From Escherichia phage vB_EcoM_R5505: a stretch of 64,000 nucleotides of DNA. Shown piece after piece: positions 36,211 through 38,491 of the stretch (position 1 is the stretch's first letter; each line of letters opens with the position of its first letter). The DNA lies in the sequence record MK373786.1; one strand, given 5' to 3'. The translations under genes and the position numbers were made by a program. The notes below the pieces were generated by a model. It was not told the DNA's origin, did no database searches, and worked only from the letters and a program-made list of their open reading frames with translations.

Positions 36211-36235
36211 AAAAAGTCCCAACCTTTCGGTTGGG
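36211..36235 (-). terminator. Intrinsic terminator
   Basis: Stem-loop CCCAACC-GAAA-GGTTGGG followed by TTTTT on the minus strand. Confidence 0.65.
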
Positions 36236-36245
36236 GCTAAGAATG

Positions 36246-36719
36246 TTATTTGATTTGTTTAGCAGACCAAATGCGGTCTTTAATAATTTTTTGGATGTCT
36301 TCAACATACTCAAGAGAGTGAGCATGTGGGTTATCTTTGAAACTATAAGCACGAGCTAACTTTTGACCTTCAGTTTTGATTACTAAAAGCTCTTTAAGGA
36401 TAGCTTCATATTTGGAGATAATTCCTTTAACAATATTTTTTTCTTGTGTAGCTTTAGGATCTGCTTTAGGAGCAGGTTTACCTGAAGCCTTTGCAAAAGC
36501 AGCGCCAGTAGCAACTAAACTTTTCCAGGCCATACTAACTGCATTCCCTGTAAATCCTTCGGCTTTCATATCACGAGCAAATTGGAATCGTGATTCATCG
36601 GAAGCATCTTTATAGGAATATTTACCCGCGGCAATGGCTGCTTTTGCGACAGCTTGAATTTCGGTGCTAGATGCTTCATTTAACACCGCTTCATTTAAAA
36701 ATTGAGCATATGATTTCAT
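36246..36719 (-). CDS. Internal-protein-like head protein with leader, 157 aa
   Basis: N-terminus MKSYAQFLNEA resembles the capsid-targeting leader; minus-strand TATAAATA at 36755-36762 upstream; hairpin terminator downstream. Confidence 0.55.
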   Translation of the reverse strand: MKSYAQFLNEAVLNEASSTEIQAVAKAAIAAGKYSYKDASDESRFQFARDMKAEGFTGNAVSMAWKSLVATGAAFAKASGKPAPKADPKATQEKNIVKGIISKYEAILKELLVIKTEGQKLARAYSFKDNPHAHSLEYVEDIQKIIKDRIWSAKQIK

Positions 36720-36754
36720 CTTATTTCCTGTTTTAATTCGTGGTTTTAATATAC

Positions 36755-36762
36755 TTATTTAT
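36755..36762 (-). promoter_or_regulatory. Late promoter core TATAAATA
   Basis: Exact TATAAATA on minus strand upstream of the head-protein-like gene 36246..36719. Confidence 0.5.
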
Positions 36763-36765
36763 ACC

Positions 36766-36792
36766 AAAAAGCCCCAACCTTTCGGTCGGGGC
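36766..36792 (-). terminator. Intrinsic terminator at the distal end of the tRNA/stable-RNA transcription unit
   Basis: Stem-loop GCCCCGACC-GAAA-GGTTGGGGC followed by TTTTT on the minus strand. Confidence 0.6.
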
Positions 36793-36799
36793 TAAGCCT

Positions 36800-37100
36800 T
36801 GCGGCAACCTTGTCGGGGTTCCACCTGCTAAGGCAAGTGTTTGTACGAAACGCCGGGATTCGAACCCGGTTATTAAGCAGTTGACGCTACTCAATATTTT
36901 TAAAAGGCCATATCTCGACCATATCCGAACGTTCCGTCAAAAACGCTACTCGGCTTACGGCAAAGATATTTCCTCGAATCGATAATTCGGTGCGCCGTTT
37001 CTGCTGTGATATAAGAGGGCATTAACAAAACATAAAGATTTATTAATGCCAGTCCTTAAACAGGGAACATCAGTCCGACGACTTACCGGTAGCGACCCGG
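36800..37100 (-). ncRNA. Structured non-coding region downstream of the tRNA cluster (candidate small stable RNAs, tRNA-like T-arm)
   Basis: No plausible ORF; tRNA-like T-arm CCGGG-ATTCGAA-CCCGG at 36853-36869 with complementary acceptor-like ends (36846-36852 and 36930-36936); 8-bp inverted repeat GGCATTAA/TTAATGCC around 37019-37050; T4 encodes two small stable RNAs near its tRNA genes. Confidence 0.35.
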
Positions 37101-37104
37101 TTTC

Positions 37105-37455
37105 TTAATATTCTTTTAAAGCATCAATTTGTTCACGGCGTAAACGCCATAAATCAATTGCTTCATAAGCAGATTCAGCATTTCGAATTAGCCGACATTT
37201 ATGTAAAGACTTATGATTTTGATATTGTGTAGATAACGGAATTTTATCTAAAAGGTCTTTACGTTCAAAATATTCGTAACCATCTAAACCAAATGAACGA
37301 TTTTTGAGAAATTGCCAATGACCATATTCGTTTTCGACATAAACATAATCTGCATGCTGATAAAGCAAATTAATTACACGTTCAGAAATAACAGTATCAT
37401 TATGATTAAAATAGAATGTTAAATCATGAACTACTAAATAAACATTACATTTCAT
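37105..37455 (-). CDS. Hypothetical protein, 116 aa
   Basis: Track ORF between tRNA-Arg and the structured RNA region. Confidence 0.45.
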   Translation of the reverse strand: MKCNVYLVVHDLTFYFNHNDTVISERVINLLYQHADYVYVENEYGHWQFLKNRSFGLDGYEYFERKDLLDKIPLSTQYQNHKSLHKCRLIRNAESAYEAIDLWRLRREQIDALKEY

Positions 37456-37473
37456 ATTTTCCTCACTTATAAT

Positions 37474-37549
37474 TGGTCGAGGCAGTAGGGATCGAACCTA
37501 CGACCTAGGACTTAGAAGGTCCTTGCTCTTCCTTCTGAGCTATGCCCCG
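37474..37549 (-). tRNA. tRNA-Arg (anticodon TCT), CCA encoded
   Basis: Hand-folded cloverleaf: acceptor CGGGGCA/TGCCTCG, T-arm GTAGG-TTCGATC-CCTAC, anticodon loop CTTCTAA. Confidence 0.85.
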
Positions 37550-37553
37550 TAAT

Positions 37554-37629
37554 TGGGGTGACCGATGGGAGTCGAACCCATGACTACGAGAATCACAATC
37601 TCGAGTTCTACCAACTGAACTACGGCCAC
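37554..37629 (-). tRNA. tRNA-His (anticodon GTG), CCA encoded
   Basis: Hand-folded: acceptor GTGGCCG/CGGTCAC, D-arm GTTC-AGTTGGTA-GAAC, anticodon loop TTGTGAT, T-arm ATGGG-TTCGACT-CCCAT, discriminator C. Confidence 0.75.
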
Positions 37630-37745
37630 ATTAATACCTACTCCAACAATCAAGATGTCTTCACACGAAATTAAGAGAAGAGTGATCAGTTCAACCCCTA
37701 TAATCGCGTCAAGTAGATATTAATGTGACAGTTGTCACAAATTTG

Positions 37746-37817
37746 GCGGACGTGATAGGATTCGAACCTATAACCAATCGCTTAACAGGCGATCGCTCTG
37801 CCATTGAGCTACACATC
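37746..37817 (-). tRNA. tRNA-Asn (anticodon GTT), CCA not encoded
   Basis: Hand-folded: acceptor GGATGTG/CACGTCC, anticodon stem-loop ATCGC-CTGTTAA-GCGAT, T-arm ATAGG-TTCGAAT-CCTAT. Confidence 0.75.
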
Positions 37818-37821
37818 CAAA

Positions 37822-37908
37822 TTGGTGGGGAGTGGTGGAGTCGAACCACCCGAGTCGCAATGACAATGAATTTACAGTCCACACCGCTACCTCTACGGGA
37901 TAACTCCC
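37822..37908 (-). tRNA. tRNA-Tyr (anticodon GTA), long variable arm, CCA encoded
   Basis: Hand-folded: acceptor GGGGAGT/ACTCCCC, anticodon loop CTGTAAA, long variable arm, T-arm GGTGG-TTCGACT-CCACC. Confidence 0.7.
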
Positions 37909-37917
37909 CAAATTAAT

Positions 37918-37992
37918 TTGGTGGCCCTGGGTGGAATTGAACCACCATCTGGCGATTATGAGTCGCTTGCTTGAACCTTCCAGCTACAGGGC
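37918..37992 (-). tRNA. tRNA with anticodon CAT (Ile2/Met type), CCA encoded
   Basis: Hand-folded: acceptor GGCCCTG/CAGGGCC, anticodon loop CTCATAA, T-arm GGTGG-TTCAATT-CCACC; in T4 the CAU tRNA reads AUA as Ile. Confidence 0.8.
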
Positions 37993-37993
37993 C

Positions 37994-38070
37994 TTGGTGC
38001 TGATTGACGGAATCGAACCGCCGACCTTCTCATTACAAGTGAGTTGCTCTACCTACTGAGCTAAATCAGC
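37994..38070 (-). tRNA. tRNA-Thr (anticodon TGT), CCA encoded
   Basis: Hand-folded: acceptor GCTGATT/AATCAGC, D-arm GCTC-AGTAGGTA-GAGC, anticodon loop CTTGTAA. Confidence 0.85.
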
Positions 38071-38075
38071 AAAAC

Positions 38076-38165
38076 TGGCGGAGGCGATAGGATTTGAACC
38101 TATGAGTCGCCGGAGCGACTGCCGGTTTTCAAGACCGGTGCATTAAACCACTCTGCCACGCCTCC
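38076..38165 (-). tRNA. tRNA-Ser (anticodon TGA), long variable arm, CCA encoded
   Basis: Hand-folded: acceptor GGAGGCG/CGCCTCC, anticodon stem-loop ACCGG-TCTTGAA-AACCGG, long variable arm, T-arm ATAGG-TTCAAAT-CCTAT. Confidence 0.9.
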
Positions 38166-38167
38166 AG

Positions 38168-38241
38168 TCTCCATACAAGGATTTGAACCTTGGACCTCCT
38201 GATCCCAAATCAGGCGCTCTACCAAACTGAGCTACACGGAG
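38168..38241 (-). tRNA. tRNA-Pro (anticodon TGG), CCA not encoded
   Basis: Hand-folded: acceptor CTCCGTG/TATGGAG, D-arm GCTC-AGTTTGGTA-GAGC, anticodon loop TTTGGGA. Confidence 0.85.
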
Positions 38242-38251
38242 TAAATTAAAT

Positions 38252-38325
<74 letters not shown>

Positions 38326-38330
38326 AAATT

Positions 38331-38417
38331 TGGTGCGAGAAGTGGGACTCGAACCCACAAGGAAATCATTCCGCAGCATTTTAAGTGCTGTGCCTTTACC
38401 AATTTGACCATTCTCGC
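38331..38417 (-). tRNA. tRNA-Leu (anticodon TAA), long variable arm, CCA encoded
   Basis: Hand-folded: acceptor GCGAGAA/TTCTCGC, anticodon stem-loop CAGCA-CTTAAAA-TGCTG, T-arm GTGGG-TTCGAGT-CCCAC. Confidence 0.85.
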
Positions 38418-38418
38418 G

Positions 38419-38491
38419 CTGGGAATAAAGGACTCGAACCTTTGCATCTAGCAGTCAAAGTGCTATGCCTTACCAACTTGGCTAATTCCCA
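38419..38491 (-). tRNA. tRNA-Gln (anticodon TTG), CCA not encoded
   Basis: Hand-folded: acceptor TGGGAAT/ATTCCCA, D-arm GCC-AAGTTGGTA-AGGC, anticodon stem-loop TAGCA-CTTTGAC-TGCTA. Confidence 0.85.

What the first reader, a model, noticed from the sequence alone, without database searches (positions are those of the whole stretch)
36800..37100. Structured non-coding RNA region with a tRNA-like T-arm downstream of the tRNA cluster
This interval has no convincing ORF on either strand. It contains a canonical T-arm (CCGGG-ATTCGAA-CCCGG) flanked by complementary acceptor-like 7-mers about 90 nt apart, but the intervening sequence does not fold into a standard cloverleaf. A second 8-bp-stem hairpin lies around 37019-37050, and the region ends at an intrinsic terminator (36766-36792). 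It probably encodes small stable RNAs analogous to the T4 species 1 and 2 RNAs, or a degenerate or unusual tRNA.
Basis: partly seen in the sequence, partly recalled or inferred. Interest (0 to 1): 0.4.

Follow-up and report, generated by a model that had tools for sequence, protein, structure and literature searches.

The report
T4 species 1 and 2 RNAs
This stretch of a T4-like phage genome carries the long-known but still function-less small stable RNAs rnaD and rnaC of phage T4; comparing relatives shows that rnaC is a tRNA-shaped RNA whose "anticodon" loop is probably tied up by pairing with a second loop.

Summary
The window comes from a Tequatrovirus (T4-like phage). On the minus strand, 37108..36989 is the orthologue of T4 rnaD (species 2 RNA). 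36982..36844 is the orthologue of T4 rnaC (species 1 RNA, 137/139 identical). Both lie downstream of an 11-tRNA cluster and upstream of an intrinsic terminator (36793..36763).

One detail is wrong. The partner of the acceptor 3' strand is the 5' end of rnaC (36981..36975), not the internal 7-mer 90 nt away.

Thirty-five distinct homologues from at least eight Tevenvirinae genera support a cloverleaf-like fold (92% of cells paired; 32 of 53 pairs show double changes). It has:
- a 7-bp acceptor stem with two conserved U·U mismatches;
- a canonical T-arm;
- a U-(A/C)CA 3' tail;
- a roughly 60-nt hairpin in place of the D-loop;
- a 10-bp "anticodon" arm.

The two hairpin loops, UUGACG and CGUCAA, are complementary and co-vary once (UUGGCG/CGCCAA), which suggests a kissing loop.

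The literature searched (to 2025) still calls the function unknown. These are known genes, so interest is modest.

The parts
36989..37108 (-). rnaD orthologue (T4 species 2 RNA), about 120 nt
   Evidence: Aligns to T4 misc_RNA rnaD, 71053-71171. The family has an invariant 5' 48 nt and 3' 25 nt around a variable central hairpin.
37085..37101 (-). rnaD 5' hairpin: 5-bp stem with a 7-nt loop GUCGCUA, invariant in 7 homologues apart from one A-U/G-U change in the closing pair
The sequence differs between lineages but always forms a hairpin.
36983..36988 (-). 6-nt spacer GAAUUA between rnaD and rnaC
36844..36982 (-). rnaC orthologue (T4 species 1 RNA), 139 nt, 137/139 identical to T4
   Evidence: The covariance model R1 scores it at 152.7 bits.
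36975..36981 (-). rnaC acceptor stem, 5' strand CGAUUCG
   Evidence: Co-varies with 36846-36852 (A-U/G-C at the third pair; phage PM2 has full Watson-Crick pairing).
36846..36852 (-). rnaC acceptor stem, 3' strand CGUUUCG, with two conserved U·U mismatches
36910..36969 (-). Long hairpin (helices 3 and 4) in the position of a D-loop, carried on the 3-bp helix AGG/CCU (36974..36972 with 36907..36905). Its apical loop UUGACG is at 36940..36935.
   Evidence: 18 of the 22 pairs in helices 3 and 4 show double changes.
36871..36896 (-). 10-bp 'anticodon-arm' hairpin with the 6-nt loop CGUCAA (36886..36881), which is complementary to the UUGACG loop
   Evidence: 9 of 10 stem pairs show double changes. 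The loop-loop pairing is 99.5% paired, with an A-U to G-C double change in the Marfavirus clade.
36853..36869 (-). rnaC T-arm CCGGG-UUCGAAU-CCCGG
   Evidence: The middle pair is G-C in 17 sequences and U-A in 17.
36842..36845 (-). 3' tail U-ACA after the acceptor stem (CCA-like). The CA is invariant in all 24 homologues inspected, and Marfavirus and PM2 encode U-CCA.
36794..36841 (-). 3' trailer between rnaC and the terminator. It contains a small hairpin and is conserved with T4.
36763..36793 (-). Intrinsic terminator: 10-bp stem with 7 G-C pairs, GAAA loop and U-run. It is the first terminator-like site on the minus strand after the tRNA cluster.

Best explanation
The interval encodes the orthologues of phage T4 rnaD (species 2 RNA, minus 37108..36989) and rnaC (species 1 RNA, minus 36982..36844).

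Shown here:
- Homology, synteny and strand all match T4.
- rnaC has a covariation-supported cloverleaf-like fold. It consists of a 7-bp acceptor stem with a tandem U·U, a 5-bp T-stem with a UUCGAAU loop, a 3-bp 'D-stem' carrying a roughly 60-nt hairpin, a 10-bp 'anticodon' arm with a 6-nt loop, and a U-(A/C)CA tail.
- The two hairpin loops are complementary (UUGACG/CGUCAA).

Inferred:
- Both RNAs are read through from the tRNA cluster and end at the terminator at 36793..36763.
- rnaC is cut out by the tRNA-maturation machinery: RNase P at the 5' end, then 3' trimming and possibly CCA repair. Its 12-bp acceptor/T-arm stack and CCA-like tail mimic a pre-tRNA. In other genera it sits inside tRNA arrays with 4-6-nt spacers.
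- The loop-loop kiss locks the body and hides the anticodon-loop analogue, so rnaC does not decode.

Speculative (about 25%):
- rnaC acts as an acceptor-arm mimic that binds or titrates a host or phage tRNA-binding factor.

rnaD is an unrelated rod-like RNA with invariant ends. It occurs independently of rnaC.
For: Identity and synteny:
- 94.5% identity to T4 across rnaD and rnaC, which are annotated misc_RNA in AF158101.
- The same annotation appears in Aplg8, RB3, RB10 and ATK47.
- rnaC is at least 99% identical in 490 of 745 phage records.

Structure of rnaC:
- On 35 distinct sequences, 92.4% of cells pair, against 38-50% when the partners are slid.
- 32 of 53 pairs show double changes, and 0 of 500 shuffles reach the observed covariation score.
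- In the kissing helix, 4 of the 6 pairs are invariant, one shows the double change below and one departs only in PM2. The A-U to G-C double change occurs in six Marfavirus-type sequences.
- The CA after the discriminator is invariant, and a full U-CCA is encoded in Marfavirus and PM2.

Context and transcription:
- rnaC is embedded between tRNA-Trp and tRNA-Gly with short spacers in Karamvirus and in phages ABTNLPp2 and COW86c.
- There is no terminator-like site on the minus strand between tRNA-Arg and 36793.
- Published Northern blots show T4 RNAC as a late RNA (PMC9697503).

Independence of rnaD:
- rnaD occurs without rnaC in dhaeg and UPEC01, and rnaC occurs without rnaD in Karamvirus.
Against: - No expression or end-mapping data exist for this particular phage.
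- The T4 annotation ends rnaC at ...GUA rather than at CCA, so CCA repair is a guess.
- The 5' nucleotide U1 lies outside the 7-bp stem. RNase P would have to cut at -1, as it does for tRNA-His.
- The kissing loop rests on one evolutionary double change plus invariance. A DNA-level inverted repeat (TTGACG...CGTCAA) would behave the same way.
- PM2 keeps only 4 of the 6 kissing pairs.
- rnaD's conserved parts are invariant, so its fold has little covariation support: 4 of 25 pairs.
- The two reviews or studies read (2010, 2022) and a 2025 paper state that the functions are unknown. From my own memory of the older literature, not checked here, T4 deletions that remove the tRNA region are viable on laboratory hosts.
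Confidence: 0.85

Rival explanations
1. The 3' 90-95 nt of rnaC is an unusual or degenerate tRNA, closed by the internal 7-mer CGGAACG, with a long extra arm, and it functions in translation.
For: - The internal 7-mer can pair with the 3' strand. It is a perfect match in PG7, and 85% of cells are nominally paired across the family.
- Some records annotate tRNA-Met or tRNA-Lys here.
- There is a weak tRNA-Sec model hit of 16.6 bits, E = 2.9.
Against: - ARAGORN and Rfam tRNA models find nothing at threshold.
- There is an A·C mismatch in 17 of 35 sequences and no compensatory change.
- The internal 7-mer co-varies with helix 4, whereas the 3' strand co-varies with the 5' terminus.
- The loop is 6 nt, near-invariant and complementary to another loop.
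- The T4 record annotates the RNA as 139 nt, starting at the 5'-terminal strand.
Confidence: 0.03
2. The interval encodes one or more short proteins, as many GenBank records annotate ('hypothetical protein').
For: ORFs of 81 aa (+), 53 aa (-) and 42 aa (-) overlap the region. Many records carry CDS annotations here.
Against: - Across the 35 distinct homologues every frame carries a stop codon in at least some sequences.
- Lengths differ by 1-4 nt, which would shift any reading frame.
- Many substitutions are compensatory changes within helices: 32 of 53 pairs show a double change.
Confidence: 0.02
3. rnaC and/or rnaD are trans-acting base-pairing regulatory sRNAs. The conserved loops or single strands pair with host or phage mRNAs.
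For: - The literature loosely calls them 'small regulatory RNAs'.
- A SNP in rnaD arose convergently in all evolved lines of a T4-like phage adapting to host ECOR34 (PMC12685909).
- rnaD has invariant segments that the predicted fold leaves unpaired.
Against: - No target is known, and a 2010 review says no trans-acting sRNA has been characterised in T4.
- rnaC's two conserved loops are complementary to each other rather than free.
- By homology with the T4 annotation, the mature RNAs end before the terminator hairpin.
Confidence: 0.08
4. The conserved motifs act at the DNA level, or the RNAs are by-products. The inverted repeat TTGACG...CGTCAA would be a protein-binding site, or the region would be a processing scaffold or 3' UTR of the tRNA operon with no function of its own.
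For: A concerted change of both half-sites (TTGGCG/CGCCAA) would also fit a dimeric DNA-binding protein. From my own memory of the older literature, not checked here, the RNAs are dispensable in laboratory hosts.
Against: - Both motifs sit exactly in apical loops of helices supported by many compensatory changes.
- T4 RNAC accumulates as a discrete RNA.
- The extreme conservation of the whole 139 nt and its retention at different positions in tRNA arrays of other genera argue for a function of the RNA itself.
Confidence: 0.04

Closest known systems
Phage T4 rnaC (species 1 RNA; 139 nt in the T4 record)
   Same: 137/139 identical. Same position (after rnaD, before the terminator), same strand as the tRNA cluster and same predicted fold.
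   Different: Two substitutions, both structure-neutral (G-U to G-C and A-U to G-U). Nothing else differs.
Phage T4 rnaD (species 2 RNA, 119 nt)
   Same: Same invariant 5' 48 nt and 3' 25 nt, and the same place immediately 5' of rnaC.
   Different: - About 90% identity to T4 over rnaD.
- The central hairpin is of a different sequence type.
- In T4, rnaD starts 1 nt after tRNA-Arg. Here a 116-aa ORF (37455..37105) is inserted, and its stop codon overlaps the first bases of rnaD.
Canonical tRNA (Rfam RF00005)
   Same: rnaC has a 7-bp acceptor stem stacked on a 5-bp T-stem, a UUCGAAU T-loop, a discriminator followed by a CCA-like tail, four-way-junction topology, and a location within tRNA arrays.
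   Different: - It has no D-loop. A roughly 60-nt hairpin takes its place.
- The 'anticodon' stem is 10 bp with a 6-nt loop that pairs with another loop.
- The variable region is 1 nt.
- There is a tandem U·U in the acceptor stem.
- tRNA models do not detect it.
tmRNA tRNA-like domain and bacterial Y-RNA-like YrlA (tRNA mimics processed by tRNA enzymes)
   Same: They work alike in principle: an acceptor/T-arm module without a decoding anticodon, expected to be recognised by RNase P and other tRNA enzymes (established knowledge for tmRNA; inference for rnaC).
   Different: - No tag ORF, tmRNA-type pseudoknots or G3:U70 are present.
- ARAGORN finds no tmRNA, and the only Rfam matches in this interval are chance-level and far below their gathering scores.
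- E. coli has no Ro protein partner (own knowledge).

Membership tests
T4 rnaC / species 1 RNA | Full-length sequence homology to T4 rnaC | tested here: met
   137/139 identical to AF158101 70908-71046.
T4 rnaC / species 1 RNA | Synteny: same strand as the tRNA cluster, 3' of rnaD, 5' of the terminator | tested here: met
T4 rnaC / species 1 RNA | Accumulates as a discrete stable RNA of about 140 nt during infection | not testable with these tools
   Only T4 itself has published Northern data (PMC9697503).
T4 rnaD / species 2 RNA | Sequence homology and position immediately 5' of rnaC | tested here: met
   About 90% identity. The 5' 48 nt and 3' 25 nt are invariant, and a 6-nt spacer separates it from rnaC.
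T4 rnaD / species 2 RNA | Starts directly after tRNA-Arg, as in T4 | tested here: not met
   A 351-bp ORF (phrog_3355) lies between tRNA-Arg and rnaD here, as it does in RB69, JEP6 and P922. This is a difference of context, not of the RNA itself.
tRNA | Recognised by tRNA covariance or heuristic models | tested here: not met
   ARAGORN finds none in 36700-37470. Rfam tRNA models are below threshold: the best is tRNA-Sec at 16.6 bits against a gathering score of 47.
tRNA | 7-bp acceptor stem, 5-bp T-stem and a T-loop of the UUCRANY type | tested here: met
   Supported by covariation. The acceptor stem has two U·U mismatches.
tRNA | D-arm with a D-loop, and a 5-bp anticodon stem with a 7-nt loop | tested here: not met
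   A 3-bp stem carries a roughly 60-nt hairpin, and the other arm is a 10-bp stem with a 6-nt loop.
tRNA | Discriminator followed by a CCA 3' end | tested here: inconclusive
   The window and T4 encode U-ACA, while Marfavirus and PM2 encode U-CCA. The CA is invariant. The mature 3' end was not mapped.
tmRNA | tRNA-Ala-like ends plus a tag reading frame and pseudoknots | tested here: not met
   ARAGORN reports no tmRNA, and there is no tmRNA match in Rfam.
Any Rfam 15 family | Score at or above the gathering threshold | tested here: not met
   In the window only the 10 tRNAs pass. With the relaxed scan, nothing in 36600-37500 has E below 0.6.

The most novel reading that the evidence does not exclude
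rnaC is a tRNA-derived RNA family spread over at least eight genera of Tevenvirinae. A D-loop insertion hairpin kisses and masks the anticodon-loop analogue, leaving only an acceptor/T-arm 'minihelix' with a conserved tandem U·U and an (A/C)CA end exposed. It would work as a decoy or competitor for a tRNA acceptor-end-binding factor, for example a host tRNA-targeting immunity effector or a tRNA 3'-end-modifying toxin. That would give the 50-year-old orphan species 1 RNA a function. The structure and the family are supported here. The decoy function is conjecture.
Probability: 0.15. Interest if true: 0.7.

Novelty: already known. Interest (0 to 1): 0.3.

Why it matters
The genes themselves are textbook T4 features, so locating them in another T4-like genome is routine annotation.

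What may be useful:
- The function of both RNAs is still stated to be unknown (2010 review, 2022 and 2025 papers).
- Neither has an Rfam family.
- Public records often mis-annotate them as hypothetical proteins or as tRNA-Lys/tRNA-Met.

The comparative structure derived here gives concrete, testable handles on an old open question. These are the acceptor stem with tandem U·U, the CCA-like tail and the co-varying loop-loop pairing. The covariance model R1 can be used to annotate the family.

Tried and rejected
- Rfam gathering and relaxed scans found nothing beyond the tRNAs.
- ARAGORN found no tRNA or tmRNA in the interval.
It shows no compensatory change and has an A·C mismatch in 17 of 35 sequences.
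- The coding hypothesis was rejected by stop-codon and length counts.
- Literature searches for 'species 1 RNA', 'p2Sp1' and tRNA-like decoys returned nothing relevant. The Miller 2003 T4 genome review is not held.
- The single metagenome scan, using a T-arm/acceptor pattern, mostly returned bacterial tRNA-Cys. That is an artefact of forcing U73 and GGCG, so no conclusion about ancestry was drawn.
- BLAST from the most divergent member (PM2) found no further lineages.
- The 135-nt weak model hits L136, L164 and L223 have no tRNA gene by ARAGORN. In L164 the match is ordinary sequence ending in a tRNA-like T-arm and acceptor 3' end, not a homologue; L136 and L223 were not inspected.
- One Python call crashed without output and was repeated without the ViennaRNA duplex step.
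- rnaD was examined for tRNA-like features. None were found beyond a 7-bp closing helix with a bulge and an ...ACC end.

Full report
**What the window is**

ARAGORN and Rfam find a cluster of tRNA genes on the minus strand at 38491..37474. ARAGORN reports 11: Gln, Leu, Gly, Pro, Ser, Thr, Met, Tyr, Asn, His and Arg. Rfam reports 10 of them at threshold. The interval 36740-37110 matches 805 phage records, almost all Tequatrovirus and relatives. It matches phage T4 itself at 94.5% identity.

**Identity of the finding**

In the T4 record AF158101 the matching stretch is annotated as two misc_RNA genes directly after tRNA-Arg:
- rnaD, described as a 'small, stable RNA; species 2 RNA', at 71053-71171;
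- rnaC, 'species 1 RNA', at 70908-71046.

Phage Aplg8 has the same annotation plus a terminator. Transferring the T4 boundaries through the alignment gives these window coordinates on the minus strand:
- rnaD at 37108..36989;
- a 6-nt spacer;
- rnaC at 36982..36844, which is 137/139 identical to T4.

They are the orthologues.

**Checking the observation**

- The T-arm CCGGG-UUCGAAU-CCCGG is at 36869..36853 on the minus strand.
- The 8-bp hairpin GGCAUUAA/UUAAUGCC is at 37050..37019 and belongs to rnaD.
- The terminator is a 10-bp stem with 7 G-C pairs at 36793..36770, followed by a T-run. It is the first terminator-like site on the minus strand after the tRNA cluster.
- Local ORFs of 81, 53 and 42 aa exist. 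Across 35 distinct homologues every frame carries stops in some sequences, and lengths vary from 138 to 142 nt.
- Both RNAs fold better than shuffled sequence: z -4.55 for rnaC and z -2.47 for rnaD.

The one flawed detail is the pair of 'acceptor-like 7-mers about 90 nt apart'. CGGAACG (36936..36930) can indeed pair with CGUUUCG (36852..36846). Across the family, however, that pairing has an A·C mismatch in 17 of 35 sequences and shows no compensatory change. The internal 7-mer co-varies with the opposite strand of its own hairpin. The 3' strand co-varies perfectly with the 5'-terminal CGAUUCG (36981..36975): A-U in 15 sequences, G-C in 19 and G-U in 1.

**Structure of rnaC**

I collected homologues from GenBank phages, from IMG/VR and from metagenomes. 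I built a covariance model (R1) and aligned 38 matches, 35 of them distinct (A8). GenBank taxonomy places the sequenced phages in Tequatrovirus, Mosigvirus, Karamvirus, Kanagawavirus, Moonvirus, Marfavirus, Gelderlandvirus and Mosugukvirus.

RNAalifold on a plain MAFFT alignment of 8 sequences had already given the fold, with 22 of 46 pairs showing double changes. On A8:
- 92.4% of cells pair, against 38-50% when the 3' partners are slid by 1-3 columns;
- 32 of 53 pairs show changes on both sides;
- 0 of 500 shuffles reach the observed covariation score.

A8 was fitted to the model, which favours the structure. The independent MAFFT result says the same thing.

The fold has cloverleaf topology:
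- a 7-bp acceptor stem with two U·U mismatches, present in 34 of 35 sequences (PM2 has U-A at both positions);
- a 3-bp helix AGG/CCU that carries a roughly 60-nt irregular hairpin where a D-loop would be;
- a 10-nt A/U-rich linker;
- a 10-bp hairpin with a 6-nt loop where the anticodon arm would be;
- one nucleotide in place of the variable region;
- a canonical T-arm.

**Kissing loop**

The two apical loops are UUGACG (36940..36935) and CGUCAA (36886..36881). They are perfectly complementary. Both are invariant in all lineages except two:
- Six Marfavirus-type sequences have UUGGCG and CGCCAA, an A-U to G-C double change.
- PM2 keeps only GACG/CGUC.

This supports a six-base-pair loop-loop interaction, either within one molecule or between two. 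It amounts to only one evolutionary event, so I treat the interaction as probable rather than proven. A DNA-level inverted repeat would show the same pattern.

**The 3' end and genomic context**

In all 24 homologues inspected, the acceptor 3' strand is followed by U, then A or C, then an invariant CA. The window and T4 encode U-ACA. Marfavirus and PM2 encode a complete U-CCA.

In Karamvirus and in phages ABTNLPp2 and COW86c, rnaC sits inside the tRNA array between tRNA-Trp and tRNA-Gly, with spacers of 4-6 nt. These phages have no rnaD. Conversely, Dhakavirus (dhaeg) and Gaprivervirus (UPEC01) have rnaD but no rnaC. The two RNAs are therefore independent modules that happen to be adjacent in T4-type genomes.

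**rnaD**

Seven homologues share an invariant 5' 48 nt, which includes a 5-bp hairpin with loop GUCGCUA. They also share an invariant 3' 25 nt ending ...GGCGCACC. Between these lies a central hairpin whose sequence is replaced between lineages but which always folds. Covariation support is thin, at 4 of 25 pairs. I see no tRNA-like module in rnaD.

**Mechanism**

Shown here: identity, fold, context and conservation. rnaC is at least 99% identical in 490 of 745 records, and rnaD is more variable.

Inferred from established tRNA biology: an acceptor/T-arm stack of 12 bp with a CCA-like tail is the minimal RNase P substrate. Combined with the tRNA-like spacing inside arrays, this suggests rnaC is released by the tRNA-processing machinery. 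The masked 'anticodon' loop and the missing D-loop argue against decoding. A role as an acceptor-arm mimic that engages a tRNA-binding factor is my preferred functional guess, at roughly one chance in four.

The literature read here states that the functions are unknown. One 2025 study found a convergent SNP in rnaD during adaptation of a T4-like phage to a new host. That hints at host-dependent function.

**Comparison and novelty**

This is a member of the T4 rnaC and rnaD families, and the membership features that could be tested were met. rnaC is tRNA-like but fails the tRNA tests for D-arm, anticodon loop and model detection. It is not a tmRNA. The finding is already known.

The possibly new elements are the family-wide covariation-supported structure, the loop-loop pairing and the CCA-like tail. 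I could not check these against the 1970s papers, which are not held.

Noticed in passing
window 37630-37743 (minus strand), between tRNA-Asn and tRNA-His: An unannotated 114-nt spacer folds far better than shuffled sequence (-32.7 vs -20.6 kcal/mol, z -4.4). It has no Rfam match. It is conserved at 77-100% identity in 355 phage records of several genera, and lies just 5' of tRNA-His in the loci examined. The consensus fold has a long closing stem whose 3' strand runs into the first bases of tRNA-His, and 6 of 34 pairs show double changes. It is a candidate third structured RNA or a tRNA-His leader element, and is absent from T4.
   Followed up: partly
window 37105-37455 (minus strand): A 116-aa ORF (phrog_3355, unknown function) is inserted between tRNA-Arg and rnaD. 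In T4, tRNA-Arg abuts rnaD. The same ORF is present in RB69 (ORF150c), JEP6 and P922. Its TAA stop overlaps the first bases homologous to T4 rnaD, so the rnaD 5' end may be formed differently here.
   Followed up: partly
window 36756-36763 (minus strand): TATAAATA, the T4 late-promoter consensus, lies directly after the terminator T-run and upstream of the 157-aa ORF 36719..36246 (phrog_2280). T4 has a different sequence at this spot.
   Followed up: no
window 36218-36235 (minus strand): A second terminator-like hairpin has the same CCGAAAGG core as the one after rnaC. It lies just downstream of the 157-aa ORF.
   Followed up: no
GenBank records, e.g. L003 (PG7) 746-840; H93 (G4507); H32 (phage 55): Public annotations frequently place 'hypothetical protein' CDSs, or tRNA-Met/tRNA-Lys calls, on top of rnaC and rnaD. 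The PG7 'tRNA-Met' is the 3' 95 nt of rnaC.
   Followed up: partly
L003-L005, L007, L122 (Karamvirus and phages ABTNLPp2, COW86c): In these phages rnaC is embedded within the tRNA array between tRNA-Trp and tRNA-Gly, and rnaD is absent. In Dhakavirus (L124) and Gaprivervirus (L127) rnaD is present without rnaC.
   Followed up: yes
window 38491-37474: The tRNA cluster has 11 genes, against 8 in T4. The extra genes are Met, Tyr, Asn and His. T4's tRNA-Ile and the segB homing-endonuclease gene are absent.
   Followed up: no
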